This document shows positions 1-60,600 of a DNA stretch of 64,000 bases, in pieces. Position 1 is the first letter of the stretch. Each line of letters opens with the position of its first letter. Source of the stretch: the human T2T-CHM13v2.0 reference genome, Homo sapiens; the NCBI GenBank assembly GCA_009914755.4, contig CP068257.2:11232001-11296000 (forward strand). Reading direction: 5' to 3'. The notes beneath the pieces are model-generated. The model saw only the letters and a program-made list of their open reading frames with translations, was not told where the DNA came from and did not search any database. Position numbers and translations under genes: made by a program.

Positions 1-1270
1 GGAATGTTCAACTCTATGAGTTGAATGCAGACATCAGAAAGAAATTTCTGAGAATGCTGCTGTCTACCTTTTATTTGAATTCCCGCTTCCAACGAAATCC
101 TCCAAGCTATCCAAATATCCACTTGCAGATTCCACAAAAAGAGTGTTTCAAAACTGCTCTCTATCAATGGCAAAGTTCAACTCTGTTAGTTGAGGACACA
201 TATCACCAACAAGTTTCTGAGAATGCTTCTGTCTATTTTTTATGGGAAGATATTTCCTTTTTCACCGTAGGCGTCAAGGCGATCGAAATGTCCACTTCCA
301 CAAACTACAAAAAGAGTGTTTCAAACCTGCTCTATGAAAGGCCATGTTCATCTCTATGAGTTGAATGGAAATATCCGAAAGAAATTTCTGGGAATGCTGC
401 TGTCTAGTGTTTATACGAATTCCCGCTTCCAACGAAATCCTCAAAGCAATCCAAATATCCACTTGCAGAATCCACAAAAAGAGTGTTTCAAAACTGCTCT
501 ATCAATAGAAAGGTTCAACTCTTTTAGTTGAGTACACACATCACGAACAAGTTTCTGAGAATGCTTCTGTCTGGCTTTTATTGGAAGACGTTTCCTTTTC
601 ACCAAAGGCATCAAAGCGCTCCAAATGTCCACTTCCAGATTCTTCCAAAAGAGTGTTTCAAACGTGCTCAAAGTAAGGGAATGTTCAACTCTGTGACTTG
701 AATGCAGATATCACCAAGTAGTTTCTAATAGTGCTTCTGTCTACATTTTAGATGATGATATTCCCGTTTCCAACGAAATCGTTAGAGCTATCCAAATATC
801 CAGTTACAGTTTCTACCAAAAGGGTGTTTCCAAATTGCTGCATCAAAAGAAAGGTTCAACTCTGTTAGTTGAGGACACACATCACAAAGAAGTTTGTGAG
901 AATGCTTCTGTCTAGATTTTGTATGACGATATTCCCTTTTCCAACGATATCGTTAAAGCAATCTAAATATCAATTTGCAGAATCCACAAAAATAGAGTTT
1001 CAAAGCTGCTCTGTAAAAAGAAAGGTTCCACTCTGTTAGCTGAGTACACACATCACAAACTTGTTTCTGAGAATCCTTCTGTCTCGTTTTTATGGGAAGA
1101 TATTTACTTTTCCACCGTAGGCATCAAAGCGCTCCAAATGTCCACATCCAGATACTCCAGAAAGAGTGTTTCAAACCTGCTCTATGAAAGGGAATCTTCA
1201 ACTCTATGAGTTGAATGCAGACATCAGAAAGAAATTTCTGAGAATGCTGCTGTCTACCTTTTATTTGAAT

Positions 1271-1287
1271 TCCCGCTTCCAACGAAA
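1271..1287 (-). promoter_or_regulatory. CENP-B box (17-bp CENP-B binding motif), monomer M1; recurs at +1870n
   Basis: + strand 'tcccgcttccaacgaaa' is the reverse complement of TTTCGTTGGAAGCGGGA. All core positions nTTCGnnnnAnnCGGGn are satisfied. Confidence 0.9.
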
Positions 1288-1612
1288 TCCTCCAAGCTAT
1301 CCAAATATCCACTTGCATTTTCCACAAAAAGAGTGTTTCAAAACTGCTCTATCAATAGAAATGTTCAACTCCTTTGGCTGGGTACACACATCACAAACAA
1401 GTTTCTGAGAATGCTTCTGTCTAGTTTTTATGGGAAGACGTTCCCTTTTTCACCAAAGGCATCAAAGCGCTCCAAATGTCCACTTCCAGACACTACAAAA
1501 AGAGTGTTTCCAACGTGCTCTAAGAAAGCGAATGTTCAACTCTGTGACTTGAATGCAGATATCACAAAGTAGTTTCTGAGAGGGCTTCTGTCTAGATTTT
1601 AGATGATGATAT

Positions 1613-1629
1613 TCCCGTTTCCAACGAAA
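1613..1629 (-). promoter_or_regulatory. CENP-B box, monomer M3; recurs at +1870n
   Basis: + strand 'tcccgtttccaacgaaa' is the reverse complement of TTTCGTTGGAAACGGGA. The core is intact. Confidence 0.9.
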
Positions 1630-1950
1630 TCATTAGAGCTATCCAAATATCCACTTACAGTTTCTACAAAAAGAGTGTTTCCAAACTGCTGCATCAAAAG
1701 AGAGGTTCCACTCTGTTAGCTGAGTACACACATCACAAACTTGTTTCTCAGAATCCTTCTGTCTCGTTTTTATGGGAAGATATTTACTTTTCCACCGTAG
1801 GCATCAAAGCGCTCCAAATGTCCACATCCAGATACTCCAGAAAGAGTGTTTCAAACCTGCTCTATGAAAGGGAATGTTCAACTCTATGAGTTGAATGCAG
1901 ACATCAGAAAGAAATTTCTGAGAATGCTGCTGTCTACCTTTTATTTGAAT

Positions 1951-1967
1951 TCCCGCTTCCAACGAAA
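1951..1967 (-). promoter_or_regulatory. CENP-B box, monomer M5; recurs at +1870n
   Basis: 'tcccgcttccaacgaaa'. The core is intact. Confidence 0.9.
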
Positions 1968-2290
1968 TCCTCCAAGCTATCCAAATATCCACTTGCAGAT
2001 TCCACAAAAAGAGTGTTTCAAAACTGCTCTCTATCAATGGCAAAGTTCAACTCTGTTAGTTGAGGACACATATCACCAACAAGTTTCTGAGAATGCTTCT
2101 GTCTATTTTTTATGGGAAGATATTTCCTTTTTCACCGTAGGCGTCAAGGCGATCGAAATGTCCACTTCCACAAACTACAAAAAGAGTGTTTCAAACCTGC
2201 TCTATGAAAGGCCATGTTCATCTCTATGAGTTGAATGGAAATATCCGAAAGAAATTTCTGGGAATGCTGCTGTCTAGTGTTTATACGAAT

Positions 2291-2307
2291 TCCCGCTTCC
2301 AACGAAA
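2291..2307 (-). promoter_or_regulatory. CENP-B box, monomer M7; recurs at +1870n
   Basis: 'tcccgcttccaacgaaa'. The core is intact. Confidence 0.9.
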
Positions 2308-2631
2308 TCCTCAAAGCAATCCAAATATCCACTTGCAGAATCCACAAAAAGAGTGTTTCAAAACTGCTCTATCAATAGAAAGGTTCAACTCTTTTAGTTG
2401 AGTACACACATCACGAACAAGTTTCTGAGAATGCTTCTGTCTGGCTTTTATTGGAAGACGTTTCCTTTTCACCAAAGGCATCAAAGCGCTCCAAATGTCC
2501 ACTTCCAGATTCTTCCAAAAGAGTGTTTCAAACGTGCTCAAAGTAAGGGAATGTTCAACTCTGTGACTTGAATGCAGATATCACCAAGTAGTTTCTAATA
2601 GTGCTTCTGTCTACATTTTAGATGATGATAT

Positions 2632-2648
2632 TCCCGTTTCCAACGAAA
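2632..2648 (-). promoter_or_regulatory. CENP-B box, monomer M9; recurs at +1870n
   Basis: 'tcccgtttccaacgaaa'. The core is intact. Confidence 0.9.
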
Positions 2649-2802
2649 TCGTTAGAGCTATCCAAATATCCAGTTACAGTTTCTACCAAAAGGGTGTTTC
2701 CAAATTGCTGCATCAAAAGAAAGGTTCAACTCTGTTAGTTGAGGACACACATCACAAAGAAGTTTGTGAGAATGCTTCTGTCTAGATTTTGTATGACGAT
2801 AT

Positions 2803-2819
2803 TCCCTTTTCCAACGATA
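2803..2819 (-). promoter_or_regulatory. Degenerate, presumably non-binding CENP-B box remnant, monomer M10; recurs at +1870n
   Basis: 'tcccttttccaacgata'. The CCCG core and the CGAA core are both lost (CCCT, CGAT), so essential contacts are missing. Confidence 0.75.
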
Positions 2820-5800
2820 TCGTTAAAGCAATCTAAATATCAATTTGCAGAATCCACAAAAATAGAGTTTCAAAGCTGCTCTGTAAAAAGAAAGGTTCCA
2901 CTCTGTTAGCTGAGTACACACATCACAAACTTGTTTCTGAGAATCCTTCTGTCTCGTTTTTATGGGAAGATATTTACTTTTCCACCGTAGGCATCAAAGC
3001 GCTCCAAATGTCCACATCCAGATACTCCAGAAAGAGTGTTTCAAACCTGCTCTATGAAAGGGAATCTTCAACTCTATGAGTTGAATGCAGACATCAGAAA
3101 GAAATTTCTGAGAATGCTGCTGTCTACCTTTTATTTGAATTCCCGCTTCCAACGAAATCCTCCAAGCTATCCAAATATCCACTTGCATTTTCCACAAAAA
3201 GAGTGTTTCAAAACTGCTCTATCAATAGAAATGTTCAACTCCTTTGGCTGGGTACACACATCACAAACAAGTTTCTGAGAATGCTTCTGTCTAGTTTTTA
3301 TGGGAAGACGTTCCCTTTTTCACCAAAGGCATCAAAGCGCTCCAAATGTCCACTTCCAGACACTACAAAAAGAGTGTTTCCAACGTGCTCTAAGAAAGCG
3401 AATGTTCAACTCTGTGACTTGAATGCAGATATCACAAAGTAGTTTCTGAGAGGGCTTCTGTCTAGATTTTAGATGATGATATTCCCGTTTCCAACGAAAT
3501 CATTAGAGCTATCCAAATATCCACTTACAGTTTCTACAAAAAGAGTGTTTCCAAACTGCTGCATCAAAAGAGAGGTTCCACTCTGTTAGCTGAGTACACA
3601 CATCACAAACTTGTTTCTCAGAATCCTTCTGTCTCGTTTTTATGGGAAGATATTTACTTTTCCACCGTAGGCATCAAAGCGCTCCAAATGTCCACATCCA
3701 GATACTCCAGAAAGAGTGTTTCAAACCTGCTCTATGAAAGGGAATGTTCAACTCTATGAGTTGAATGCAGACATCAGAAAGAAATTTCTGAGAATGCTGC
3801 TGTCTACCTTTTATTTGAATTCCCGCTTCCAACGAAATCCTCCAAGCTATCCAAATATCCACTTGCAGATTCCACAAAAAGAGTGTTTCAAAACTGCTCT
3901 CTATCAATGGCAAAGTTCAACTCTGTTAGTTGAGGACACATATCACCAACAAGTTTCTGAGAATGCTTCTGTCTATTTTTTATGGGAAGATATTTCCTTT
4001 TTCACCGTAGGCGTCAAGGCGATCGAAATGTCCACTTCCACAAACTACAAAAAGAGTGTTTCAAACCTGCTCTATGAAAGGCCATGTTCATCTCTATGAG
4101 TTGAATGGAAATATCCGAAAGAAATTTCTGGGAATGCTGCTGTCTAGTGTTTATACGAATTCCCGCTTCCAACGAAATCCTCAAAGCAATCCAAATATCC
4201 ACTTGCAGAATCCACAAAAAGAGTGTTTCAAAACTGCTCTATCAATAGAAAGGTTCAACTCTTTTAGTTGAGTACACACATCACGAACAAGTTTCTGAGA
4301 ATGCTTCTGTCTGGCTTTTATTGGAAGACGTTTCCTTTTCACCAAAGGCATCAAAGCGCTCCAAATGTCCACTTCCAGATTCTTCCAAAAGAGTGTTTCA
4401 AACGTGCTCAAAGTAAGGGAATGTTCAACTCTGTGACTTGAATGCAGATATCACCAAGTAGTTTCTAATAGTGCTTCTGTCTACATTTTAGATGATGATA
4501 TTCCCGTTTCCAACGAAATCGTTAGAGCTATCCAAATATCCAGTTACAGTTTCTACCAAAAGGGTGTTTCCAAATTGCTGCATCAAAAGAAAGGTTCAAC
4601 TCTGTTAGTTGAGGACACACATCACAAAGAAGTTTGTGAGAATGCTTCTGTCTAGATTTTGTATGACGATATTCCCTTTTCCAACGATATCGTTAAAGCA
4701 ATCTAAATATCAATTTGCAGAATCCACAAAAATAGAGTTTCAAAGCTGCTCTGTAAAAAGAAAGGTTCCACTCTGTTAGCTGAGTACACACATCACAAAC
4801 TTGTTTCTGAGAATCCTTCTGTCTCGTTTTTATGGGAAGATATTTACTTTTCCACCGTAGGCATCAAAGCGCTCCAAATGTCCACATCCAGATACTCCAG
4901 AAAGAGTGTTTCAAACCTGCTCTATGAAAGGGAATCTTCAACTCTATGAGTTGAATGCAGACATCAGAAAGAAATTTCTGAGAATGCTGCTGTCTACCTT
5001 TTATTTGAATTCCCGCTTCCAACGAAATCCTCCAAGCTATCCAAATATCCACTTGCATTTTCCACAAAAAGAGTGTTTCAAAACTGCTCTATCAATAGAA
5101 ATGTTCAACTCCTTTGGCTGGGTACACACATCACAAACAAGTTTCTGAGAATGCTTCTGTCTAGTTTTTATGGGAAGACGTTCCCTTTTTCACCAAAGGC
5201 ATCAAAGCGCTCCAAATGTCCACTTCCAGACACTACAAAAAGAGTGTTTCCAACGTGCTCTAAGAAAGCGAATGTTCAACTCTGTGACTTGAATGCAGAT
5301 ATCACAAAGTAGTTTCTGAGAGGGCTTCTGTCTAGATTTTAGATGATGATATTCCCGTTTCCAACGAAATCATTAGAGCTATCCAAATATCCACTTACAG
5401 TTTCTACAAAAAGAGTGTTTCCAAACTGCTGCATCAAAAGAGAGGTTCCACTCTGTTAGCTGAGTACACACATCACAAACTTGTTTCTCAGAATCCTTCT
5501 GTCTCGTTTTTATGGGAAGATATTTACTTTTCCACCGTAGGCATCAAAGCGCTCCAAATGTCCACATCCAGATACTCCAGAAAGAGTGTTTCAAACCTGC
5601 TCTATGAAAGGGAATGTTCAACTCTATGAGTTGAATGCAGACATCAGAAAGAAATTTCTGAGAATGCTGCTGTCTACCTTTTATTTGAATTCCCGCTTCC
5701 AACGAAATCCTCCAAGCTATCCAAATATCCACTTGCAGATTCCACAAAAAGAGTGTTTCAAAACTGCTCTCTATCAATGGCAAAGTTCAACTCTGTTAGT

Positions 5801-8800
5801 TGAGGACACATATCACCAACAAGTTTCTGAGAATGCTTCTGTCTATTTTTTATGGGAAGATATTTCCTTTTTCACCGTAGGCGTCAAGGCGATCGAAATG
5901 TCCACTTCCACAAACTACAAAAAGAGTGTTTCAAACCTGCTCTATGAAAGGCCATGTTCATCTCTATGAGTTGAATGGAAATATCCGAAAGAAATTTCTG
6001 GGAATGCTGCTGTCTAGTGTTTATACGAATTCCCGCTTCCAACGAAATCCTCAAAGCAATCCAAATATCCACTTGCAGAATCCACAAAAAGAGTGTTTCA
6101 AAACTGCTCTATCAATAGAAAGGTTCAACTCTTTTAGTTGAGTACACACATCACGAACAAGTTTCTGAGAATGCTTCTGTCTGGCTTTTATTGGAAGACG
6201 TTTCCTTTTCACCAAAGGCATCAAAGCGCTCCAAATGTCCACTTCCAGATTCTTCCAAAAGAGTGTTTCAAACGTGCTCAAAGTAAGGGAATGTTCAACT
6301 CTGTGACTTGAATGCAGATATCACCAAGTAGTTTCTAATAGTGCTTCTGTCTACATTTTAGATGATGATATTCCCGTTTCCAACGAAATCGTTAGAGCTA
6401 TCCAAATATCCAGTTACAGTTTCTACCAAAAGGGTGTTTCCAAATTGCTGCATCAAAAGAAAGGTTCAACTCTGTTAGTTGAGGACACACATCACAAAGA
6501 AGTTTGTGAGAATGCTTCTGTCTAGATTTTGTATGACGATATTCCCTTTTCCAACGATATCGTTAAAGCAATCTAAATATCAATTTGCAGAATCCACAAA
6601 AATAGAGTTTCAAAGCTGCTCTGTAAAAAGAAAGGTTCCACTCTGTTAGCTGAGTACACACATCACAAACTTGTTTCTGAGAATCCTTCTGTCTCGTTTT
6701 TATGGGAAGATATTTACTTTTCCACCGTAGGCATCAAAGCGCTCCAAATGTCCACATCCAGATACTCCAGAAAGAGTGTTTCAAACCTGCTCTATGAAAG
6801 GGAATCTTCAACTCTATGAGTTGAATGCAGACATCAGAAAGAAATTTCTGAGAATGCTGCTGTCTACCTTTTATTTGAATTCCCGCTTCCAACGAAATCC
6901 TCCAAGCTATCCAAATATCCACTTGCATTTTCCACAAAAAGAGTGTTTCAAAACTGCTCTATCAATAGAAATGTTCAACTCCTTTGGCTGGGTACACACA
7001 TCACAAACAAGTTTCTGAGAATGCTTCTGTCTAGTTTTTATGGGAAGACGTTCCCTTTTTCACCAAAGGCATCAAAGCGCTCCAAATGTCCACTTCCAGA
7101 CACTACAAAAAGAGTGTTTCCAACGTGCTCTAAGAAAGCGAATGTTCAACTCTGTGACTTGAATGCAGATATCACAAAGTAGTTTCTGAGAGGGCTTCTG
7201 TCTAGATTTTAGATGATGATATTCCCGTTTCCAACGAAATCATTAGAGCTATCCAAATATCCACTTACAGTTTCTACAAAAAGAGTGTTTCCAAACTGCT
7301 GCATCAAAAGAGAGGTTCCACTCTGTTAGCTGAGTACACACATCACAAACTTGTTTCTCAGAATCCTTCTGTCTCGTTTTTATGGGAAGATATTTACTTT
7401 TCCACCGTAGGCATCAAAGCGCTCCAAATGTCCACATCCAGATACTCCAGAAAGAGTGTTTCAAACCTGCTCTATGAAAGGGAATGTTCAACTCTATGAG
7501 TTGAATGCAGACATCAGAAAGAAATTTCTGAGAATGCTGCTGTCTACCTTTTATTTGAATTCCCGCTTCCAACGAAATCCTCCAAGCTATCCAAATATCC
7601 ACTTGCAGATTCCACAAAAAGAGTGTTTCAAAACTGCTCTCTATCAATGGCAAAGTTCAACTCTGTTAGTTGAGGACACATATCACCAACAAGTTTCTGA
7701 GAATGCTTCTGTCTATTTTTTATGGGAAGATATTTCCTTTTTCACCGTAGGCGTCAAGGCGATCGAAATGTCCACTTCCACAAACTACAAAAAGAGTGTT
7801 TCAAACCTGCTCTATGAAAGGCCATGTTCATCTCTATGAGTTGAATGGAAATATCCGAAAGAAATTTCTGGGAATGCTGCTGTCTAGTGTTTATACGAAT
7901 TCCCGCTTCCAACGAAATCCTCAAAGCAATCCAAATATCCACTTGCAGAATCCACAAAAAGAGTGTTTCAAAACTGCTCTATCAATAGAAAGGTTCAACT
8001 CTTTTAGTTGAGTACACACATCACGAACAAGTTTCTGAGAATGCTTCTGTCTGGCTTTTATTGGAAGACGTTTCCTTTTCACCAAAGGCATCAAAGCGCT
8101 CCAAATGTCCACTTCCAGATTCTTCCAAAAGAGTGTTTCAAACGTGCTCAAAGTAAGGGAATGTTCAACTCTGTGACTTGAATGCAGATATCACCAAGTA
8201 GTTTCTAATAGTGCTTCTGTCTACATTTTAGATGATGATATTCCCGTTTCCAACGAAATCGTTAGAGCTATCCAAATATCCAGTTACAGTTTCTACCAAA
8301 AGGGTGTTTCCAAATTGCTGCATCAAAAGAAAGGTTCAACTCTGTTAGTTGAGGACACACATCACAAAGAAGTTTGTGAGAATGCTTCTGTCTAGATTTT
8401 GTATGACGATATTCCCTTTTCCAACGATATCGTTAAAGCAATCTAAATATCAATTTGCAGAATCCACAAAAATAGAGTTTCAAAGCTGCTCTGTAAAAAG
8501 AAAGGTTCCACTCTGTTAGCTGAGTACACACATCACAAACTTGTTTCTGAGAATCCTTCTGTCTCGTTTTTATGGGAAGATATTTACTTTTCCACCGTAG
8601 GCATCAAAGCGCTCCAAATGTCCACATCCAGATACTCCAGAAAGAGTGTTTCAAACCTGCTCTATGAAAGGGAATCTTCAACTCTATGAGTTGAATGCAG
8701 ACATCAGAAAGAAATTTCTGAGAATGCTGCTGTCTACCTTTTATTTGAATTCCCGCTTCCAACGAAATCCTCCAAGCTATCCAAATATCCACTTGCATTT

Positions 8801-11800
8801 TCCACAAAAAGAGTGTTTCAAAACTGCTCTATCAATAGAAATGTTCAACTCCTTTGGCTGGGTACACACATCACAAACAAGTTTCTGAGAATGCTTCTGT
8901 CTAGTTTTTATGGGAAGACGTTCCCTTTTTCACCAAAGGCATCAAAGCGCTCCAAATGTCCACTTCCAGACACTACAAAAAGAGTGTTTCCAACGTGCTC
9001 TAAGAAAGCGAATGTTCAACTCTGTGACTTGAATGCAGATATCACAAAGTAGTTTCTGAGAGGGCTTCTGTCTAGATTTTAGATGATGATATTCCCGTTT
9101 CCAACGAAATCATTAGAGCTATCCAAATATCCACTTACAGTTTCTACAAAAAGAGTGTTTCCAAACTGCTGCATCAAAAGAGAGGTTCCACTCTGTTAGC
9201 TGAGTACACACATCACAAACTTGTTTCTCAGAATCCTTCTGTCTCGTTTTTATGGGAAGATATTTACTTTTCCACCGTAGGCATCAAAGCGCTCCAAATG
9301 TCCACATCCAGATACTCCAGAAAGAGTGTTTCAAACCTGCTCTATGAAAGGGAATGTTCAACTCTATGAGTTGAATGCAGACATCAGAAAGAAATTTCTG
9401 AGAATGCTGCTGTCTACCTTTTATTTGAATTCCCGCTTCCAACGAAATCCTCCAAGCTATCCAAATATCCACTTGCAGATTCCACAAAAAGAGTGTTTCA
9501 AAACTGCTCTCTATCAATGGCAAAGTTCAACTCTGTTAGTTGAGGACACATATCACCAACAAGTTTCTGAGAATGCTTCTGTCTATTTTTTATGGGAAGA
9601 TATTTCCTTTTTCACCGTAGGCGTCAAGGCGATCGAAATGTCCACTTCCACAAACTACAAAAAGAGTGTTTCAAACCTGCTCTATGAAAGGCCATGTTCA
9701 TCTCTATGAGTTGAATGGAAATATCCGAAAGAAATTTCTGGGAATGCTGCTGTCTAGTGTTTATACGAATTCCCGCTTCCAACGAAATCCTCAAAGCAAT
9801 CCAAATATCCACTTGCAGAATCCACAAAAAGAGTGTTTCAAAACTGCTCTATCAATAGAAAGGTTCAACTCTTTTAGTTGAGTACACACATCACGAACAA
9901 GTTTCTGAGAATGCTTCTGTCTGGCTTTTATTGGAAGACGTTTCCTTTTCACCAAAGGCATCAAAGCGCTCCAAATGTCCACTTCCAGATTCTTCCAAAA
10001 GAGTGTTTCAAACGTGCTCAAAGTAAGGGAATGTTCAACTCTGTGACTTGAATGCAGATATCACCAAGTAGTTTCTAATAGTGCTTCTGTCTACATTTTA
10101 GATGATGATATTCCCGTTTCCAACGAAATCGTTAGAGCTATCCAAATATCCAGTTACAGTTTCTACCAAAAGGGTGTTTCCAAATTGCTGCATCAAAAGA
10201 AAGGTTCAACTCTGTTAGTTGAGGACACACATCACAAAGAAGTTTGTGAGAATGCTTCTGTCTAGATTTTGTATGACGATATTCCCTTTTCCAACGATAT
10301 CGTTAAAGCAATCTAAATATCAATTTGCAGAATCCACAAAAATAGAGTTTCAAAGCTGCTCTGTAAAAAGAAAGGTTCCACTCTGTTAGCTGAGTACACA
10401 CATCACAAACTTGTTTCTGAGAATCCTTCTGTCTCGTTTTTATGGGAAGATATTTACTTTTCCACCGTAGGCATCAAAGCGCTCCAAATGTCCACATCCA
10501 GATACTCCAGAAAGAGTGTTTCAAACCTGCTCTATGAAAGGGAATCTTCAACTCTATGAGTTGAATGCAGACATCAGAAAGAAATTTCTGAGAATGCTGC
10601 TGTCTACCTTTTATTTGAATTCCCGCTTCCAACGAAATCCTCCAAGCTATCCAAATATCCACTTGCATTTTCCACAAAAAGAGTGTTTCAAAACTGCTCT
10701 ATCAATAGAAATGTTCAACTCCTTTGGCTGGGTACACACATCACAAACAAGTTTCTGAGAATGCTTCTGTCTAGTTTTTATGGGAAGACGTTCCCTTTTT
10801 CACCAAAGGCATCAAAGCGCTCCAAATGTCCACTTCCAGACACTACAAAAAGAGTGTTTCCAACGTGCTCTAAGAAAGCGAATGTTCAACTCTGTGACTT
10901 GAATGCAGATATCACAAAGTAGTTTCTGAGAGGGCTTCTGTCTAGATTTTAGATGATGATATTCCCGTTTCCAACGAAATCATTAGAGCTATCCAAATAT
11001 CCACTTACAGTTTCTACAAAAAGAGTGTTTCCAAACTGCTGCATCAAAAGAGAGGTTCCACTCTGTTAGCTGAGTACACACATCACAAACTTGTTTCTCA
11101 GAATCCTTCTGTCTCGTTTTTATGGGAAGATATTTACTTTTCCACCGTAGGCATCAAAGCGCTCCAAATGTCCACATCCAGATACTCCAGAAAGAGTGTT
11201 TCAAACCTGCTCTATGAAAGGGAATGTTCAACTCTATGAGTTGAATGCAGACATCAGAAAGAAATTTCTGAGAATGCTGCTGTCTACCTTTTATTTGAAT
11301 TCCCGCTTCCAACGAAATCCTCCAAGCTATCCAAATATCCACTTGCAGATTCCACAAAAAGAGTGTTTCAAAACTGCTCTCTATCAATGGCAAAGTTCAA
11401 CTCTGTTAGTTGAGGACACATATCACCAACAAGTTTCTGAGAATGCTTCTGTCTATTTTTTATGGGAAGATATTTCCTTTTTCACCGTAGGCGTCAAGGC
11501 GATCGAAATGTCCACTTCCACAAACTACAAAAAGAGTGTTTCAAACCTGCTCTATGAAAGGCCATGTTCATCTCTATGAGTTGAATGGAAATATCCGAAA
11601 GAAATTTCTGGGAATGCTGCTGTCTAGTGTTTATACGAATTCCCGCTTCCAACGAAATCCTCAAAGCAATCCAAATATCCACTTGCAGAATCCACAAAAA
11701 GAGTGTTTCAAAACTGCTCTATCAATAGAAAGGTTCAACTCTTTTAGTTGAGTACACACATCACGAACAAGTTTCTGAGAATGCTTCTGTCTGGCTTTTA

Positions 11801-48800: not shown

Positions 48801-50310
48801 ACACATATCACCAACAAGTTTCTGAGAATGCTTCTGTCTATTTTTTATGGGAAGATATTTCCTTTTTCACCGTAGGCGTCAAGGCGATCGAAATGTCCAC
48901 TTCCACAAACTACAAAAAGAGTGTTTCAAACCTGCTCTATGAAAGGCCATGTTCATCTCTATGAGTTGAATGGAAATATCCGAAAGAAATTTCTGGGAAT
49001 GCTGCTGTCTAGTGTTTATACGAATTCCCACTTCCAACGAAATCCTCAAAGCAATCCAAATATCCACTTGCAGAATCCACAAAAAGAGTGTTTCAAAACT
49101 GCTCTATCAATAGAAAGGTTCAACTCTTTTAGTTGAGTACACACATCACGAACAAGTTTCTGAGAATGCTTCTGTCTGGCTTTTATTGGAAGACGTTTCC
49201 TTTTCACCAAAGGCATCAAAGCGCTCCAAATGTCCACTTCCAGATTCTTCCAAAAGAGTGTTTCAAACGTGCTCAAAGTAAGGGAATGTTCAACTCTGTG
49301 ACTTGAATGCAGATATCACCAAGTAGTTTCTAATAGTGCTTCTGTCTAGATTTTAGATGATGATATTCCCGTTTCCAACGAAATCGTTAGAGCTATCCAA
49401 ATATCCACTTACAGTTTCTACAAAAAGAGTGTTTCCAAACTGCTGCATCAAAAGAAAGGTTCAACTCTGTTAGTTGAGGACACACATCACAAAGAAGTTT
49501 GTGAGAATGCTTCTGTCTAGATTTTGTATGACGATATTCCCTTTTCCAACGATATCGTTAAAGCAATCTAAATATCAATTTGCAGAATCCACAAAAATAG
49601 TTTCAAAGCTGCTCTGTAAAAAGAAAGGTTCCACTCTGTTAGCTGAGTACACACATCACAAACTTGTTTCTCAGAATCCTTCTGTCTCGTTTTTATGGGA
49701 AGATATTTACTTTTCCACCGTAGGCATCAAAGCGCTCCAAATGTCCACATCCAGATACTCCAGAACGAGTGTTTCAAACCTGCTCTATGAAAGGGAATCT
49801 TCAACTCTATGAGTTGAATGCAGACATCAGAAAGAAATTTCTGAGAATGCTGCTGTCTACCTTTTATTTGAATTCCCGCTTCCAACGAAATCCTCCAAGC
49901 TATCCAAATATCCACTTGCATTTTCCACAAAAAGAGTGTTTCAAAACTGCTCTATCAATAGAAATGTTCAACTCCTTTGGCTGGGTACACACATCACAAA
50001 CAAGTTTCTGAGAATGCTTCTGTCTAGTTTTTATGGGAAGACGTTCCCTTTTTCACCAAAGGCATCAAAGCGCTCCAAATGTCCACTTCCAGACACTACA
50101 AAAAGAGTGTTTCCAACGTGCTCTAAGAAAGCGAATGTTCAACTCTGTGACTTGAATGCAGATATCACAAAGTAGTTTCTGAGAGGGCTTCTGTCTAGAT
50201 TTTAGATGATGATATTCCCGTTTCCAACGAAATCATTAGAGCTATCCAAATATCCACTTACAGTTTCTACAAAAAGAGTGTTTCCAAACTGCTGCATCAA
50301 AAGAGAGGTT
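42831..50310 (-). repeat. 7,480-bp super-repeat block (4 HOR units), copy 2 of 2
   Basis: See copy 1. It also carries a private 2-bp deletion at about 49600 (acaaaaatagtttcaaagc). Confidence 0.75.
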
Positions 50311-53300
50311 CCACTCTGTTAGCTGAGTACACACATCACAAACTTGTTTCTCAGAATCCTTCTGTCTCGTTTTTATGGGAAGATATTTACTTTTTCACCG
50401 TAGGCATCAAAGCGCTCCAAATGTCCACATCCAGATACTCCAGAAAGAGTGTTTCAAACCTGCTCTATGAAAGGGAATCTTCAACTCTATGAGTTGAATG
50501 CAGACATCAGAAAGAAATTTCTGAGAATGCTGCTGTCTACCTTTTATTTGAATTCCCGCTTCCAACGAAATCCTCCAAGCTATCCAAATATCCACTTGCA
50601 GATTCCACAAAAAGAGTGTTTCAAAACTGCTCTCTATCAATGGCAAAGTTCAACTCTGTTAGTTGAGGACACATATCACCAACAAGTTTCTGAGAATGCT
50701 TCTGTCTATTTTTTATGGGAAGATATTTCCTTTTTCACCGTAGGCGTCAAGGCGATCGAAATGTCCACTTCCACAAACTACAAAAAGAGTGTTTCAAACC
50801 TGCTCTATGAAAGGCCATGTTCATCTCTATGAGTTGAATGGAAATATCCGAAAGAAATTTCTGGGAATGCTGCTGTCTAGTGTTTATACGAATTTCCGCT
50901 TCCAACGAAATCCTCAAAGCAATCCAAATATCCACTTGCAGAATCCACAAAAAGAGTGTTTCAAAACTGCTCTATCAATAGAAAGGTTCAACTCTTTTAG
51001 TTGAGTACACACATCACGAACAAGTTTCTGAGAATGCTTCTGTCTGGCTTTTATTGGAAGACGTTTCCTTTTCACCAAAGGCATCAAAGCGCTCCAAATG
51101 TCCACTTCCAGATTCTTCCAAAAGAGTGTTTCAAACGTGCTCAAAGTAAGGGAATGTTCAACTCTGTGACTTGAATGCAGATATCACCAAGTAGTTTCTA
51201 ATAGTGCTTCTGTCTACATTTTAGATGATGATATTCCCGTTTCAAACGAAATCGTTAGAGCTATCCAAATATCCAGTTACAGTTTCTACCAAAAGGGTGT
51301 TTCCAAATTGCTGCATCAAAAGAAAGGTTCAACTCTGTTAGTTGAGGACACACATCACAAAGAAGTTTGTGAGAATGCTTCTGTCTAGATTTTGTATGAC
51401 GATATTCCCTTTTCCAACGATATCGTTAAAGCAATCTAAATATCAATTTGCAGAATCCACAAAAATAGAGTTTCAAAGCTGCTCTGTAAAAAGAAAGGTT
51501 CCACTCTGTTAGCTGAGTACACACATCACAAACTTGTTTCTCAGAATCCTTCTGTCTCGTTTTTATGGGAAGATATTTACTTTTCCACCGTAGGCATCAA
51601 AGCGCTCCAAATGTCCACATCCAGATACTCCAGAAAGAGTGTTTCAAACCTGCTCTATGAAAGGGAATCTTCAACTCTATGAGTTGAATGCAGACATCAG
51701 AAAGAAATTTCTGAGAATGCTGCTGTCTACCTTTTATTTGAATTCCCGCTTCCAACGAAATCCTCCAAGCTATCCAAATATCCACTTGCATTTTCCACAA
51801 AAAGAGTGTTTCAAAACTGCTCTATCAATAGAAATGTTCAACCCCTTTGGCTGGGTACACACATCACAAACAAGTTTCTGAGAATGCTTCTGTCTAGTTT
51901 TTATGGGAAGACGTTCCCTTTTTCACCAAAGGCATCAAAGCGCTCCAAATGTCCACTTCAAGACACTACAAAAAGAGTGTTTCCAACGTGCTCTAAGAAA
52001 GCGAATGTTCAACTCTGTGACTTGAATGCAGATATCACAAAGTAGTTTCTGAGAGGGCTTCTGTCTAGATTTTAGATGATGATATTCCCGTTTCCAACGA
52101 AATCATTAGAGCTATCCAAATATCCACTTACAGTTTCTACAAAAAGAGTGTTTCCAAACTGCTGCATCAAAAGAGAGGTTCCACTCTGTTAGCTGAGTAC
52201 ACACATCACAAACTTGTTTCTCAGAATCCTTCTGTCTCGTTTTTATGGGAAGATATTTACTTTTTCACCGTAGGCATCAAAGCGCTCCAAATGTCCACAT
52301 CCAGATACTCCAGAAAGAGTGTTTCAAACCTGCTCTATGAAAGGGAATCTTCAACTCTATGAGTTGAATGCAGACATCAGAAAGAAATTTCTGAGAATGC
52401 TGCTGTCTACCTTTTATTTGAATTCCCGCTTCCAACGAAATCCTCCAAGCTATCCAAATATCCACTTGCAGATTCCACAAAAAGAGTGTTTCAAAACTGC
52501 TCTCTATCAATGGCAAAGTTCAACTCTGTTAGTTGAGGACACATATCACCAACAAGTTTCTGAGAATGCTTCTGTCTATTTTTTATGGGAAGATATTTCC
52601 TTTTTCACCGTAGGCGTCAAGGCGATCGAAATGTCCACTTCCACAAACTACAAAAAGAGTGTTTCAAACCTGCTCTATGAAAGGCCATGTTCATCTCTAT
52701 GAGTTGAATGGAAATATCCGAAAGAAATTTCTGGGAATGCTGCTGTCTAGTGTTTATACGAATTCCCACTTCCAACGAAATCCTCAAAGCAATCCAAATA
52801 TCCACTTGCAGAATCCACAAAAAGAGTGTTTCAAAACTGCTCTATCAATAGAAAGGTTCAACTCTTTTAGTTGAGTACACACATCACGAACAAGTTTCTG
52901 AGAATGCTTCTGTCTGGCTTTTATTGGAAGACGTTTCCTTTTCACCAAAGGCATCAAAGCGCTCCAAATGTCCACTTCCAGATTCTTCCAAAAGAGTGTT
53001 TCAAACGTGCTCAAAGTAAGGGAATGTTCAACTCTGTGACTTGAATGCAGATATCACCAAGTAGTTTCTAATAGTGCTTCTGTCTAGATTTTAGATGATG
53101 ATATTCCCGTTTCCAACGAAATCGTTAGAGCTATCCAAATATCCACTTACAGTTTCTACAAAAAGAGTGTTTCCAAACTGCTGCATCAAAAGAAAGGTTC
53201 AACTCTGTTAGTTGAGGACACACATCACAAAGAAGTTTGTGAGAATGCTTCTGTCTAGATTTTGTATGACGATATTCCCTTTTCCAACGATATCGTTAAA

Positions 53301-56300
53301 GCAATCTAAATATCAATTTGCAGAATCCACAAAAATAGAGTTTCAAAGCTGCTCTGTAAAAAGAAAGGTTCCACTCTGTTAGCTGAGTACACACATCACA
53401 AACTTGTTTCTGAGAATCCTTCTGTCTCGTTTTTATGGGAAGATATTTACTTTTCCACCGTAGGCATCAAAGCGCTCCAAATGTCCACATCCAGATACTC
53501 CAGAACGAGTGTTTCAAACCTGCTCTATGAAAGGGAATCTTCAACTCTATGAGTTGAATGCAGACATCAGAAAGAAATTTCTGAGAATGCTGCTGTCTAC
53601 CTTTTATTTGAATTCCCGCTTCCAACGAAATCCTCCAAGCTATCCAAATATCCACTTGCATTTTCCACAAAAAGAGTGTTTCAAAACTGCTCTATCAATA
53701 GAAATGTTCAACTCCTTTGGCTGGGTACACACATCACAAACAAGTTTCTGAGAATGCTTCTGTCTAGTTTTTATGGGAAGACGTTCGCTTTTTCACCAAA
53801 GGCATCAAAGCGCTCCAAATGTCCACTTCCAGACACTACAAAAAGAGTGTTTCCAACGTGCTCTAAGAAAGCGAATGTTCAACTCTGTGACTTGAATGCA
53901 GATATCACAAAGTAGTTTCTGAGAGGGCTTCTGTCTAGATTTTAGATGATGATATTCCCGTTTCCAACGAAATCATTAGAGCTATCCAAATATCCACTTA
54001 CAGTTTCTACAAAAAGAGTGTTTCCAAACTGCTGCATCAAAAGAGAGGTTCCACTCTGTTAGCTGAGTACACACATCACAAACTTGTTTCTCAGAATCCT
54101 TCTGTCTCGTTTTTATGGGAAGATATTTACTTTTTCACCGTAGGCATCAAAGCGCTCCAAATGTCCACATCCAGATACTCCAGAAAGAGTGTTTCAAACC
54201 TGCTCTATGAAAGGGAATCTTCAACTCTATGAGTTGAATGCAGACATCAGAAAGAAATTTCTGAGAATGCTGCTGTCTACCTTTTATTTGAATTCCCGCT
54301 TCCAACGAAATCCTCCAAGCTATCCAAATATCCACTTGCAGATTCCACAAAAAGAGTGTTTCAAAACTGCTCTCTATCAATGGCAAAGTTCAACTCTGTT
54401 ACTTGAGGACACATATCACCAACAGGTTTCTGAGAATGCTTCTGTCTATTTTTTATGGGAAGATATTTCCTTTTTCACCGTAGGCGTCAAGGCGATCGAA
54501 ATGTCCACTTCCACAAACTACAAAAAGAGTGTTTCAAACCTGCTCTATGAAAGGCCATGTTCATCTCTATGAGTTGAATGGAAATATCCGAAAGAAATTT
54601 CTGGGAATGCTGCTGTCTAGTTTTTATACGAATTCCCGCTTCCAACGAAATCCTCAAAGCAATCCAAATATCCACTTGCAGAATCCACAAAAAGAGTGTT
54701 TCAAAACTGCTCTATCAATAGAAAGGTTCAACTCTTTTAGTTGAGTACACACATCACGAACAAGTTTCTCAGAATGCTTCCGTCTGGCTTTTATTGGAAG
54801 ACGTTTCCTTTTCACCAAAGGCATCAAAGCGCTCCAAATGTCCACTTCCAGATTCTTCCAAAAGAGTGTTTCAAACGTGCTCAAAGTAAGGGAATGTTCA
54901 ACTCTGTGACTTGAATGCAGATATCACCAAGTAGTTTCTAATAGTGTTTCTGTCTAGATTTTAGATGATGATATTCCCGTTTCCAACGAAATCGTTAGAG
55001 CTATCCAAATATCCACTTACAGTTTCTACAAAAAGGGTGTTTCCAAACTGCTGCATCAAAAGAAAGGTTCAACTCTGTTAGTTGAGGACACACATCACAA
55101 AGAAGTTTGTGAGAATGCTTCTGTCTAGATTTTGTATGACGATATTCCCTTTTCCAACGATATCGTTAAAGCAATCTAAATATCAATTTGCAGAATCCAC
55201 AAAAATAGAGTTTCAAAGCTGCTCTGTAAAAAGAAAGGTTCCACTCTGTTAGCTGAGTACACACATCACAAACTTGTTTCTGAGAATCCTTCTGTCTTGT
55301 TTTTATGGGAAGATATTTACTTTTTCACCGTAGGCATCAAAGGGCTCCAAATGTCCACATCCAGATACTCCAGAAAGAGTGTTTCAAACCTGCTCTATGA
55401 AAGGGAATCTTCAACTCTATGAGTTGAATGCAGACATCAGAAAGAAATTTCTGAGAATGCTGCTGTCTACCTTTTATGTGAATTCCCGCTTCCAATGAAA
55501 TCCTCCAAGCTATCCAAATATCCACCTGCATTTTCCACAAAAAGAGTGTTTCAAAACTGCTCTATCAATAGAAATGTTCAACTCCTTTGGCTGGGTACAC
55601 ACATCACAAACAAGTTTCTGAGAATGCTTCTGTCTAGTTTTTATGGGAAGACATTCCCTTTTTCACCAAAGGCATCAAAGCGCTCCAAATGTCCACTTCC
55701 AGACACTACAAAAAGAGTGTTTCCAACGTGCTCTAAGAAAGCGAATGATCAACTCTGTGACTTGAATGCAGATATCACAAAGTAGTTTCTGAGAGGGCTT
55801 CTGTCTAGATTTTAGACGATGATATTCCCGTTTCCAACGAAATCATTAGAGCTATCCAAATATCCACTTACAGTTTCTACAAAAAGAGTGTTTCCAAACT
55901 GCTGCATCAGAAGAGAGGTTCCACTCTGTTAGCTGAGTACACACATCACAAACTTGTTTCTCAGAATCCTTCTGTCTCGTTTTTATGGGAAGATATTTAC
56001 TTTTTCACCGTAGGCATCAAAGCGCTGCAAATGTCCACATCCAGATACTCCAGAAAGAGTGTTTCAAACCTGCTCTATGAAAGGGAATCTTCAACTCTAT
56101 GAGTTGAATGCAGACATCAGAAAGAAATTTCTGAGAATGCTGCTGTCTACCTTTTATTTGAATTCCCGCTTCCAACGAAATCCTCCAAGCTATCCAAATA
56201 TCCACTTGCTGATTCCACAGAAAGAGTGTTTCAAAACTGCTCTCTATCAATGGCAAAGTTCAACTCTGTTAGTTGAGGACACATATCACCAACAAGTTTC

Positions 56301-57649
56301 TGAGAATGCTTCTGTCTATTTTTTATGGGAAGATATTTCCTTTTTCACCGTAGGCGTCAAGGCGATCGAAATGTCCACTTCCACAAACTACAAAAAGAGT
56401 GTTTCAAACCTGCTCTATGAAAGGCCATGTTCATCTCTATGAGTTGAATGGAAATATCCGAAAGAAATTTCTGGGAATGCTGCTGTCTAGTTTTTATACG
56501 AATTCCCGCTTCCAACGAAATCCTCAAAACAATCCAAATATCCACTTGCAGAATCCACAAAAAGAGTGTTTCAAAACTGCTCTATCAATAGAAAGGTTCA
56601 ACACTTTTAGTTGAGTACACACATCACGAACAAGTTTCTGAGAATGCTTCTGTCTGGCTTTTATTGGAAGACGTTTCCTTTTCACCAAAGGCATCAAAGC
56701 GCTCCAAATGTCCACTTCCAGATTCTTCCAAAAGAGTGTTTCAAACGTGCTCAAAGTAAGGGAATGTTCAACTCTGTGACTTGAATGCAGATATCACCAA
56801 GTAGTTTCTAATAGTGCTTCTGTCTAGATTTTAGATGATGATATTCCCGTTTCCAACGAAATCGTTAGAGCTATCCAAATATCCACTTACAGTTTCTACC
56901 AAAAGGGTGTTTCCAAACTGCTGCATCAAAAGAAAGGTTCAACTCTGTTAGTTGAGGACACACATCACAAAGAAGTTTGTGAGAATGCTTCTGTCTAGAT
57001 TTTGTATGACGATATTCCCTTTTCCAACGATATCGTTAAAGCAATCTAAATATCAATTTGCAGAATCCACAAAAATAGAGTTTCAAACCTGCTCTGTAAA
57101 AAGAAAGGTTCCACTCTGTTAGCTGAGTACACACATCACAAACTTGTTTCTGAGAATCCTTCTGTCTCGTTTTTATGGGAAGATATTTACTTTTTCACCG
57201 TAGGCATCAAAGCGCTCCAAATGTCCACATCCAGATACCCCAGAAAGAGTGTTTCAAACCTGCTCTATGAAAGGGAATCTTCAACTCAATGAGTTGAATG
57301 CAGACATCAGAAAGAACTTTCTGAGAATGCTGCTGTCTACCTTTTATTTGAATTCCCGCTTCCAACGAAATCCTCCAAGCTATCCAAATATCCACTTGCA
57401 TTTTCCACAAAAAGAGTGTTTCAAAACTGCTCTATCAATAGAAATGTTCAACTCCTTTGGCTGGGTACACACATCACAAACAAGTTTCTGAGAATGCTTC
57501 TGTCTAGTTTTTATGGGAAGACATTCCCTTTTTCACCAAAGGCATCAAAGCGCTCCAAATGTCCACTTCCAGACACTACAAAAAGAGGGTTTCCAACGTG
57601 CTCTAAGAAAGCGAATGTTCAACTCTGTGACTTGAATGCAGATATCACA

Positions 57650-60600
57650 AAGTAGTTTCTGAGAGGGCTTCTGTCTGGATTTTAGATGATGATATTCCCG
57701 TTTCCAACGAAATCATTAGAGCTATCCAAATATCCACTTACAGTTTCTACAAAAAGAGTGTTTCCAAACTGCTGCATCAAAAGAGAGGTTCCACTCTGTT
57801 AGCTGAGTACACACATCACAAACTTGTTTCTGAGAATCCTTCTGTCTCGTTTTTATGGGAAGATATTTCCTTTTTCACCGTAGGCATCAAAGCGCTCAAA
57901 ATGTCCACTTCCAGATTCTTCCAAAAGAGTGTTTCAAACGTGCTCAAAGTAAGGGAATGTTCAACTCTGTGACTTGAATGCAGATATCACCAAGTAGTTT
58001 CTAATAGTGCTTCTGTCTACATTTTAGATGATGATATTCCCGTTTCCAATGAAATCGTTAAATCTATCCAAATATCCACTTACAGTTTCTACAAAAAGAG
58101 TGTTTCCAAACTGCTGCATCAAAAGGAAGGTTCAACTCTGTTAGTTGAGGACACACATCACAAAGATGTTTGTGAGAATGCTTCTGTCTAGATTTTGTAT
58201 GACCATATTCCCTTTTCCAACGATATCGTTAAAGAAATCTAAATATCAATTTGCAGAATCCACAAAAATAGAGTTTCAAAGCTGCTCTGTAAAAAGAAAG
58301 GTTCCACTCTGTTAGCTGAGTACACACATCACAAACTTGTTTCTGAGAATCCTTCTGTCTCGTTTTTATGGGAAGATATTTACTTTTTCACCGTAGGCAT
58401 CAAAGCGCTCCAAATGTCCACATCCAGATACTCCAGAAAGAGTGTTTCAAACCTGCTCTATGAAAGGGAATCTTCAACTCTATGAGTTGAATGCAGACAT
58501 CAGAAAGAAATTTCTGAGAATGCTGCTGTCTACCTTTTATTTGAATTCCCGCTTCCAACGAAATCCTCCAAGCTATCCAAATATCCACCTGCATTTTCCA
58601 CAAAAAGAGTGTTTCAAAACTGCTCTATCAATAGAAATGTTCAACTCCTTTGGCTGGGTACACACATCACAAACAAGTTTCTGAGAATGCTTCTGTCTAG
58701 TTTTTATGGGAAGACATTCCCTTTTTCACCAAAGGCATCAAAGCGCTCCAAATGTCCACTTCCAGACACTACAAAAAGAGTGTTTCAAACGTGCTCTAAG
58801 AAAGCGAATGTTCAACTCTGTGACTTGAATGCAGATATCACAAAGTAGTTTCTGAGAGGGCTTCTGTCTAGATTTTAGATGATGATATTCCCGATTACAA
58901 AGAAATCGTTAGAGCTATCCAAATATCCACTTACAGTTTCTACAAAAAGAGTGTTTCCAAACTGCTGCATCAAAAGAAAGATTCAACTCTGTTAGTTGAG
59001 GACACACATCACAAAGAAGTTTGTGAGAATGCTTCTGTCTAGATTTTGTATGACGATATTCCCTTTTCCAACGATATCGTTAAAGCAATCTAAATATCAA
59101 TTTGCAGAATCCACAAAAATAGAGTTTCAAAGCTGCTCTGTAAAAAGAAAGGTTCCGCTCTGTTAGCTGAGTACACACATCACAAACTTGTTTCTGAGAA
59201 TCCTTCTGTCTCGTTTTTATGGGAAGATATTTACTTTTTCACCGTAGGCATCAAAGCGCTCCAAATGTCCACATCCAGATACTACAGAAAGAGTATTTCA
59301 AACCTGCTCTATGAAAGGGAATCTTCAACTCTATGAGTTGAATGCAGACATCAGAAAGAAATTTCTGAGAATGCTGCTGTCTATCTTTTATTTGAATTCC
59401 CGTTTCCAACGAAATCCTCCAAGCTATCCAAATATCCACTTGCAGATTCCACAGAAAGAGTGTTTCAAAACTGCTCTCTATCAATGGCAAAGTTCAACTC
59501 TGTCAGTTGAGGACACATATCTCCAACAAGTTTCTGAGAATGCTTCTGTCTATTTTTTATGGGAAGATATTTCCTTTTTCACCGTAGGCGTCAAGGCGAT
59601 CGAAATGTCCACTTCCACAAACTACAAAAAGAGTGTTTCAAACCTGCTCTATGAAAGGCCATGTTCATCTCTATGAGTTGAATGGAAATATCCGAAAGAA
59701 ATTTCTGGGAATGCTGCTGTCTAGTTTTTATACGAATTCCCGCTTCCAACGAAATCCTCAAAGCAATCCAAATATCCACTTGCAGAATCCACAAAAAGAG
59801 TGTTTCAAAACTGCTCTATCAATAGAAAGGTTCAACTCTTTTAGTTGAGTACACACATCACGAACAAGTTTCTCAGAATGCTTCTGTCTGGCTTTTATTG
59901 GAAGACGTTTCCTTTTCACCAAAGGCATCAAAGCGCTCCAAATGTCCACTTCCAGATTCTTCCAAAAGAGTGTTTCAAACGTGCTCAAAGTAAGGGAATG
60001 TTCAACTCTGTGACTTGAATGCAGATATCACCAAGTAGTTTCTAATAGTGCTTCTGTCTAGATTTTAGATGATGATATTCCCGTTTCCAACGAAATCGTT
60101 AGAGCTATCCAAATATCCACTTACAGTTTCTACAAAAAGAGTGTTTCCAAACTGCTGCATCAAAAGAAAGGTTCAACTCTGTTAGTTGAGGACACACATC
60201 ACAAAGAAGTTTGTGAGAATGCTTTTGTCTAGATTTTGTGTGACCATATTCCCTTTTCCAACGATATCGTTAAAGCAATCTAAATATCAATTTGCAGAAT
60301 CCACAAAAATAGAGTTTCAAAGCTGCTCTTTAAAAAGAAGGGTTCCACTCTGTTAGCTGAGTACACACATCACAAACTTGTTTCTGAGAAACCTTCTGTC
60401 TCGTTTTTATGGGAAGATATTTACTTTTTCACCGTAGGCATCAAAGCGCTCCAAATGTCCACATCCAGATACTCCAGAAAGAGTGTTTCAAACCTGCTCT
60501 ATGAAAGGGAATCTTCAACTCTATGAGTTGAATGCAGACATCAGAAAGAAATTTCTGAGAATGCTGCTGTCTACCTTTTATTTGAATTCCCGCTTCCAAC

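What the first reader, a model, noticed from the sequence alone, without database searches (positions are those of the whole stretch)
1..57650. Active-core-like alpha-satellite HOR array: 11-mer, 1,870 bp, five CENP-B boxes per unit
About 31 nearly identical 11-monomer HOR copies fill the window. CENP-B boxes sit on every other monomer. This is the architecture of a live human centromere core. An 11-mer carrying five alternating CENP-B boxes matches what has been described for the alpha21-I (D13Z1/D21Z1) HOR. An 11-mer canonical unit is also reported for chromosome 8 (D8Z2). I cannot assign the chromosome from sequence alone.
Basis: partly seen in the sequence, partly recalled or inferred. Interest (0 to 1): 0.5.

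Follow-up and report, generated by a model that had tools for sequence, protein, structure and literature searches.

The report
Human chromosome 13/21 centromere satellite array
The window is an ordinary, already well-described piece of human centromere DNA: the 11-monomer alpha-satellite repeat (alpha21-I, D13Z1/D21Z1) that forms the centromeres of chromosomes 13 and 21, caught where the uniform array starts to break up towards one edge.

Summary
All 64 kb is 171-bp alpha satellite. Positions 1-56083 hold 30 canonical 11-monomer units of 1867-1870 bp. A 31st unit (56084-57953) ends in a hybrid monomer. The 31 units average 99.1% pairwise identity, and the first 14.1 kb is perfectly periodic. 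Each canonical unit has five CENP-B boxes, all on the minus strand, plus one inactive box variant.

The unit is alpha21-I (D13Z1/D21Z1, S2C13/21H1L). EcoRI cuts it into 4-, 2- and 5-monomer pieces. The inactive box falls in published monomer 10 with the exact published two-base change. Nine of ten published alpha21-I oligonucleotides match in full or at every native base, and one is a base off. D8Z2 is rejected, because its published monomers match at only 82-87%.

Three points need qualifying.
- Box alternation breaks once per unit (a 509-bp gap).
- Beyond 57783 the array continues as rearranged and then diverged (87-98%) units, so the window sits at or near an array edge or a boundary between layers.
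- "Active core" cannot be read from sequence.

Chromosome 13 versus 21 is unresolved. This is already known and of low interest.

The parts
1..56083 (-). 30 canonical 11-monomer alpha-satellite HOR units (1870 bp; some 1867 or 1868), read in the orientation that puts the CENP-B boxes on the minus strand
1..14124 (-). Perfectly periodic run: 7 identical units plus part of the 8th, with no mismatch at lag 1870
81..97 (-). CENP-B box of my monomer M1 (published monomer 5), TCCCGCTTCCAACGAAA on the + strand; it recurs every 1870 bp
421..437 (-). CENP-B box of M3 (published monomer 7). This is the box most often lost: it fails the core motif in 6 of 31 units
762..778 (-). CENP-B box of M5 (published monomer 9)
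933..949 (-). Inactive box variant TCCCTTTTCCAACGATA in M6 (published monomer 10). It differs from an active box by the two substitutions described for alpha21-I
1271..1287 (-). CENP-B box of M8 (published monomer 1)
1613..1629 (-). CENP-B box of M10 (published monomer 3)
16831..28044 (-). Three-unit block present twice (unit types d-e-f then d-e-g; f and g differ at 8 positions)
28045..33645 (-). Three identical 1867-bp units (type h)
35516..50473 (-). Four-unit block present twice (types j-k-l-m then j-n-o-p; partner units differ at 0-2 positions)
56084..57953 (-). 31st unit: monomers 1-10 are canonical (98-100%) and the last monomer is a hybrid
57783..57953 (-). Hybrid monomer: the first ~85 bp match M7/M11 and the last ~55 bp match M4; M5 follows. 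This marks an in-register exchange that removed monomers 1-3
57954..61871 (-). Rearranged HOR variants at 96-99% identity to canonical monomers, in the order 5-6-7-8-9-10, 6-7, 1-10, 6-hybrid, 5-6-7
61188..61358 (-). Second copy of the same M7/M4 hybrid monomer, 3405 bp (20 monomers) after the first
61872..64000 (-). Diverged HOR-derived monomers, 87-98% identical to canonical ones, in irregular order. Five CENP-B core boxes lie at or beyond 61872

Best explanation
The window is part of the human alpha-satellite higher-order repeat array known as alpha21-I, D13Z1/D21Z1 or S2C13/21H1L. This is the suprachromosomal-family-2 array that carries the functional centromeres of chromosomes 13 and 21.

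Shown here: a 1870-bp unit of 11 monomers of two alternating types. It has five CENP-B boxes, one inactive box variant, and the restriction map and oligonucleotide sites published for alpha21-I.

Inferred from established knowledge: CENP-B binds the 17-bp boxes at roughly 340-bp intervals. Together with the homogeneous repeat, this supports the assembly and maintenance of CENP-A chromatin and the kinetochore. Ohzeki 2002 showed that this very 11mer needs its CENP-B boxes to form centromeres de novo.

Inferred from the pattern of variants: the array is kept uniform and reshaped by unequal exchange or conversion between repeats. The evidence is a perfect 7-unit run, 3- and 4-unit block duplications, and hybrid monomers formed in register between paralogous monomers. 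Divergence rises towards the right end of the window, as expected at the older periphery of a layered array.
For: - Period and decomposition.
- Monomer types alternate, with 84-89% identity within a type and 69-82% between types. M7 and M11 are 99% identical, M1 and M8 96%, M5 and M10 94%.
- 158 minus-strand CENP-B cores against 0.08 expected, five per unit.
- Published alpha21-I 11mer (PMC2173396): five boxes, EcoRI 4-/2-/5-mer pieces, an inactive two-substitution motif in monomer 10, and an XbaI site used inside the 4mer.
- Window unit: EcoRI sites at 77, 417 and 1267 give 340, 850 and 680 bp, that is 2, 5 and 4 monomers. XbaI cuts at 1591 inside the 4mer. Counting monomers from the EcoRI site at 1267 puts TCCCTTTTCCAACGATA in monomer 10.
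- Oligonucleotides: Cen21 fw and rv, T1, T2, T3, SA1 and SA4 match exactly in 3 to 62 copies. H1 and H2 differ only at their two engineered bases. SA3 has one mismatch.
- The family is listed as SF2 and live (PMC4496801), and the canonical S2C13/21H1L unit is an 11-mer (PMC10542383).
- About 20 independent metagenome contigs, one labelled human gut, carry the same HOR at 98.6-99.7% identity, some with 1870-bp spacing of the marker.
- Variant anatomy.
Against: - No full-length alpha21-I or S2C13/21H1L reference, and no human assembly, could be aligned with these tools. Identity rests on about ten oligonucleotides, the restriction map and the box pattern, not on an end-to-end percentage.
- Several primers match exactly in only some copies: T2 in 3 and Cen21 rv in 10. 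The remaining copies were not scored individually; unit 1 differs from each of these primers by a single base on direct reading.
- Chromosome 13 versus 21 is unresolved.
- Centromere activity of this stretch is untested. CDRs cover only about 8% of active arrays on average (PMC12822586).
- If the window came from a computed reference model such as the hg38 centromere models, the long-range order would not be biological. Nothing here excludes that outright.
Confidence: 0.93

Rival explanations
1. It is the chromosome 8 centromere array D8Z2, whose canonical unit is also an 11-mer.
For: - D8Z2 has an 11-monomer predominant unit (PMC8099727).
- The published D8Z2 monomers also contain five CENP-B core motifs, in monomers B, D, F, H and I. 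Architecture alone therefore does not separate the two arrays.
Against: - Each of the 11 published D8Z2 monomers matches the window unit at only 82-87%, which is the level of unrelated SF2 monomers.
- The alpha21-I oligonucleotides and restriction map fit.
Confidence: 0.01
2. It is an engineered alpha21-I array, such as the 32-copy BAC insert pWTR11.32 or a human artificial chromosome derived from it, and not native chromosomal DNA.
For: - Seven perfectly identical units in a row.
- About 31 units in roughly 58 kb resembles the 32-copy, 60-kb construct described in PMC2173396.
Against: - The NheI/SpeI ligation junction of that construct (primer SA2, GGGAATTCGCTAGTGAATTC) is absent even with 3 mismatches allowed. 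There is no GCTAGT, NheI or SpeI site anywhere in the window.
- The 31 units fall into 20 sequence types with 111 variable columns.
- Hybrid monomers and a diverged tail follow the array, and no vector sequence is present.
Confidence: 0.02
3. It belongs to the alpha21-I family but is an inactive, heterochromatic flank of the array (or a minor copy of the array elsewhere), so it does not carry the kinetochore.
For: - The right 6 kb is rearranged and diverged, which places the window at or near an array edge or an internal boundary between layers.
- Units that have lost a box cluster in the right half: units 22, 23 and 26-30.
- CDRs occupy only about 8% of an active array on average.
Against: - The left 14 kb is perfectly homogeneous, and CDRs tend to lie on the most identical sequence (99.55% against 99.36%).
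- The chromosome 21 array in CHM13 is only about 331 kb, so no part of it is far from an edge.
- Kinetochore position shows p- or q-proximal biases on some chromosomes.
Confidence: 0.55

Closest known systems
alpha21-I 11mer (clone p11-4; D21Z1/D13Z1; S2C13/21H1L)
   Same: - 11 monomers and a period of about 1.87 kb.
- Five active CENP-B boxes in published monomers 1, 3, 5, 7 and 9.
- An inactive two-substitution box in published monomer 10.
- EcoRI 4-/2-/5-mer pieces and an XbaI site in the 4mer.
- Matches to the published oligonucleotides.
   Different: - Single-base differences from the cloned unit in some copies. For example, primer T2 is exact in only 3 copies, and SA3 has one mismatch in every copy.
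- The window also shows structural variants and a diverged tail that a single cloned unit does not have.
D8Z2 (chromosome 8 live HOR, 11-mer)
   Same: - SF2 dimeric alpha satellite with an 11-monomer canonical unit.
- Five CENP-B core motifs.
- Variant HORs formed through hybrid monomers.
   Different: - Monomer sequences are only 82-87% identical.
- The reported unit length is 1881 bp (the listed monomers sum to 1867 bp), against 1870 bp here.
Synthetic alpha21-I arrays used to seed human artificial chromosomes (pWTR11.32)
   Same: The same repeat unit and a similar copy number and length; CENP-B-box-dependent centromere seeding has been shown for this unit.
   Different: The window has no cloning junctions, has natural sequence variation, and has a degenerate edge.

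Membership tests
Alpha satellite | Tandem head-to-tail monomers of about 171 bp, AT-rich | tested here: met
   TRF finds period 171 with 376.5 copies over 3-63987. GC content is 0.375-0.391 throughout.
Higher-order repeat (HOR) array | Neighbouring monomers diverge by 10-30%, while multi-monomer units are near-identical to one another | tested here: met
   Monomers within a unit are 69-99% identical. Units are 99.12% identical on average.
Suprachromosomal family 2 | Two alternating monomer types (a dimeric base), with a CENP-B box in one type | tested here: met
   Types alternate: M1, 3, 5, 8, 10 against M2, 4, 7, 9, 11, with M6 odd. The boxes occur only in the first type. The D1/D2 consensus sequences themselves were not available to align against. 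The literature lists D13Z1/D21Z1 as SF2.
alpha21-I / D13Z1/D21Z1 / S2C13/21H1L | 11-monomer unit with five active CENP-B boxes | tested here: met
   compared with PMC2173396.
alpha21-I / D13Z1/D21Z1 / S2C13/21H1L | EcoRI divides the unit into 4-, 2- and 5-monomer fragments, and XbaI cuts inside the 4mer | tested here: met
   EcoRI sites at 77, 417 and 1267 give 340, 850 and 680 bp. XbaI cuts at 911 and 1591.
alpha21-I / D13Z1/D21Z1 / S2C13/21H1L | Monomer 10 carries a box variant with two substitutions that abolishes CENP-B binding | tested here: met
   TCCCTTTTCCAACGATA at 933-949 falls in monomer 10 when counting starts at the EcoRI site at 1267. The sequence equals the mutant motif of primers H2 and H3. 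Binding itself was not tested.
alpha21-I / D13Z1/D21Z1 / S2C13/21H1L | Published alpha21-I-specific oligonucleotides are present | tested here: met
   Seven of ten are exact, two differ only at their engineered bases, and one has a single mismatch.
alpha21-I / D13Z1/D21Z1 / S2C13/21H1L | At least 97% full-length identity to the reference HOR consensus or the T2T annotation | not testable with these tools
   No human assembly or HOR library is available here, and no paper text holds the full unit.
alpha21-I / D13Z1/D21Z1 / S2C13/21H1L | Location at the primary constriction of chromosome 13 or 21 | not testable with these tools
   The window contains no unique flanking sequence. The chromosome-discriminating LNA primers are not held in the accessible text.
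D8Z2 | Monomers matching the published chromosome 8 A-K set | tested here: not met
   Best identity is 82.0-86.7%.
Active centromere core (CENP-A domain / CDR) | CENP-A enrichment and a local CpG methylation dip | not testable with these tools
   These are epigenetic properties. Only sequence homogeneity, a weak correlate, can be seen here.

The most novel reading that the evidence does not exclude
The window captures a boundary of the D13Z1/D21Z1 array with two features of possible note. One is a pair of structural-variant HORs built on an M7/M4 hybrid monomer and a 10-to-6 junction, which may not be catalogued. The other is a perfectly identical 14-kb run, about 7.5 units long, which could mark a very recent expansion lying under or next to the kinetochore site.
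Probability: 0.12. Interest if true: 0.2.

Novelty: already known. Interest (0 to 1): 0.08.

Why it matters
It matters little as a discovery. This HOR has been cloned, sequenced and used to build human artificial chromosomes since the 1990s, and it is fully assembled in T2T genomes.

The check does show three things. Sequence alone can assign such a window to its HOR family. Architecture (an 11-mer with five boxes) does not separate alpha21-I from D8Z2, whereas monomer sequence does. And the window illustrates how an array changes towards one end, passing from perfect copies to block duplications, hybrid-monomer variants and finally diverged units.

Tried and rejected
- D8Z2: tested against the 11 published monomers and rejected at 82-87% identity.
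- Synthetic BAC or HAC array: the junction primer and NheI/SpeI scars are absent.
- Chromosome 13 versus 21: I looked for the LNA discriminating primers of Contreras-Galindo 2017 and of papers that reuse them. No sequences are held. My recollection of a single-base 13/21 primer difference at the TGATGTGTGTACCCAGC(C/T) site could not be confirmed in the library, so it is not used. The window has the ...GCC form in 31 copies and the other form in 1.
- Full-length alpha21-I sequence in paper text: none was found with six diagnostic strings.
- Extending the diverged right edge with metagenome contigs: no contig matches it in register above about 90%.
- Rfam: no family reaches its threshold.
- Coding potential: the longest stop-free stretch is 142 codons, and nothing suggests a gene.
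Full report
**What is there.** The whole 64-kb window is alpha satellite. Tandem Repeats Finder reports one 171-bp array over 3-63987, and base composition is flat at 37.5-39.1% GC. Self-comparison shows a dominant higher-order period of 1870 bp. Local 500-bp windows are 98-100% identical at lag 1867-1870 up to about 56 kb. After that the best lags become 850, 1193, 2041, 3234 and 3405 bp, which correspond to 5, 7, 12, 19 and 20 monomers.

I cut unit 1-1870 into 11 monomers and assigned every monomer in the window to its best class. Positions 1-56083 hold 30 complete units in the order 1 to 11. A 31st unit (56084-57953) has a hybrid last monomer. Region 57954-61871 holds rearranged but still 96-99% identical partial units, in the order 5-10, 6-7, 1-10, 6-hybrid, 5-7. 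Region 61872-64000 holds monomers only 87-98% identical to the canonical ones, in irregular order.

**Homogeneity and dynamics.** The 31 units average 99.12% pairwise identity, with 111 variable columns and 20 distinct sequence types.
- Units 1-7 are identical, and the period is perfect over 1-14124.
- Three identical 1867-bp units lie at 28045-33645.
- The order of types is aaaaaaabcdefdeghhhijklmjnopqrst. It shows a three-unit block present twice (16831-28044) and a four-unit block present twice (35516-50473).
- Differences from the left-hand type rise to 23 and 30 in units 30 and 31.
- The two hybrid monomers (57783-57953 and 61188-61358) have the same pattern. The first ~85 bp match M7/M11 and the last ~55 bp match M4, and M5 follows. 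This is what in-register unequal exchange between paralogous monomers would produce.

These are the usual signs of local amplification and unequal exchange in a satellite array, with an older, more diverged periphery. That last reading is an inference.

**CENP-B boxes.** The core motif NTTCGNNNNANNCGGGN occurs 158 times, all on the minus strand, against 0.08 expected from shuffles. Each canonical unit has five boxes, starting at offsets 81, 421, 762, 1271 and 1613 (monomers M1, M3, M5, M8 and M10). Spacings are 340, 341, 509, 342 and 338 bp. Alternation therefore breaks once per unit, at M6, which carries TCCCTTTTCCAACGATA. Twenty-two units keep all five boxes and nine have four. The M3 box is lost most often (six of the nine losses), through single-base changes in the CCCG part of the box, three of them at its CpG. 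The units that have lost a box lie mostly in the right half.

**Which HOR.** Ohzeki et al. 2002 (PMC2173396) describe the alpha21-I 11mer as follows:
- five CENP-B boxes;
- cut by EcoRI into 4-, 2- and 5-monomer fragments;
- an XbaI site used inside the 4mer;
- a motif in monomer 10 with two nucleotide changes that abolish CENP-B binding.

Their mutagenic primers give that motif as TCCCTTTTCCAACGATA.

In the window unit, EcoRI sites at 77, 417 and 1267 give fragments of 340, 850 and 680 bp. XbaI cuts at 1591, inside the 680-bp piece. Counting monomers from the EcoRI site at 1267 puts the inactive motif in monomer 10 and the active boxes in monomers 1, 3, 5, 7 and 9.

Ten published alpha21-I oligonucleotides were tested.
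- Cen21 forward and reverse, T1, T2, T3, SA1 and SA4 match exactly in 3 to 62 places.
- H1 and H2 differ only at their two engineered bases.
- SA3 has one mismatch.

The literature classes D13Z1/D21Z1 as the live SF2 HOR of chromosomes 13 and 21 (PMC4496801) and gives the canonical S2C13/21H1L unit as an 11-mer (PMC10542383). The alternation of two monomer types seen here fits SF2.

**The rival D8Z2.** Logsdon et al. 2021 print the 11 D8Z2 monomers. Each matches the window unit at only 82.0-86.7%. The sequence does.

**Other rivals.**
- A synthetic 32-copy alpha21-I BAC array would carry NheI/SpeI junctions. Neither the junction primer (with up to 3 mismatches) nor any GCTAGT, NheI or SpeI site is present, and the units vary naturally.
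- A computed centromere model cannot be strictly excluded. The rise in divergence towards the right end and the shared hybrid monomers look like real sequence.

**Related sequences elsewhere.** A 49-base marker spanning the inactive box found 49 stretches of metagenome contigs. About 20 of them are 98.6-99.7% identical to the window consensus over their whole length, several with the marker 1870 bp apart, and one is labelled human gut metagenome. These are best read as host DNA in metagenome assemblies. They show the same HOR in independent samples. None extends the window's right edge.

**Function.** By established knowledge, this array family is where CENP-A chromatin and the kinetochore of chromosomes 13 and 21 assemble. 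CENP-B binds the boxes, and this particular 11mer seeds centromeres de novo only when its boxes are intact.

Whether this particular stretch is under the kinetochore cannot be told from sequence. CDRs cover about 8% of active arrays and tend to lie on the most identical sequence, but the difference is small, 99.55% against 99.36% (PMC12822586). The window combines a perfectly homogeneous left part with a degenerating right end. My estimate is that it is slightly more likely to be flank than kinetochore site.

**Limits.**
- No human assembly or HOR library was available, so there is no end-to-end identity to a reference.
- Chromosome 13 versus 21 is unresolved.

**Verdict.** The finding is real, is correctly interpreted as alpha21-I (D13Z1/D21Z1), and is already known. 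Interest is low.

Noticed in passing
window 1-14124: A 14.1-kb stretch is perfectly periodic at 1870 bp, with 7 identical units plus part of an 8th. It is either a very recent amplification or, less likely, an assembly or model artefact. The run may continue to the left of the window.
   Followed up: partly
window 57783-57953 and 61188-61358: Two copies of the same hybrid monomer (M7/M11 in the first half, M4 in the second half) lie 3405 bp apart. The rearranged 20-monomer block was therefore itself duplicated.
   Followed up: yes
window 1-57953 (31-unit alignment): Among 104 minor alleles, transversions (62) outnumber transitions (42). 46 minor alleles equal the base at the same position of a paralogous monomer, against about 32 expected at random. 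This is a weak hint of conversion between monomers and remains unexplained.
   Followed up: partly
window units 12, 15, 22, 23, 26-30 (e.g. 39677-39693, 41547-41563): Nine of 31 units have lost one CENP-B core box. Six losses are in the M3 box, two in M1 and one in M8, through single-base changes such as TCCCG to TCCCA or TTCCG. The losses cluster towards the diverging end.
   Followed up: partly
published D8Z2 monomers (PMC8099727): The chromosome 8 11-mer also carries five CENP-B core motifs, in monomers B, D, F, H and I. '11-mer with five boxes' is therefore not diagnostic of alpha21-I.
   Followed up: yes
L017, L021, L046 (contig BNJS01001333.1, 47 kb) and other metagenome loci L001-L049: Human alpha21-I-type satellite turns up in many metagenome assemblies. 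One is a 47-kb contig made of relatives only 83-97% identical, with marker spacings of 3426 and 1724 bp. It is probably host DNA from a diverged or pericentromeric relative of this HOR, or a chimeric assembly.
   Followed up: partly
window unit, M7 vs M11, M1 vs M8, M5 vs M10, M4 vs M9: The last four monomers of the unit (M8-M11) pair with M1, M4, M5 and M7 at 96, 89, 94 and 99% identity. This suggests that the 11-mer arose from a shorter unit by internal duplication.
   Followed up: no
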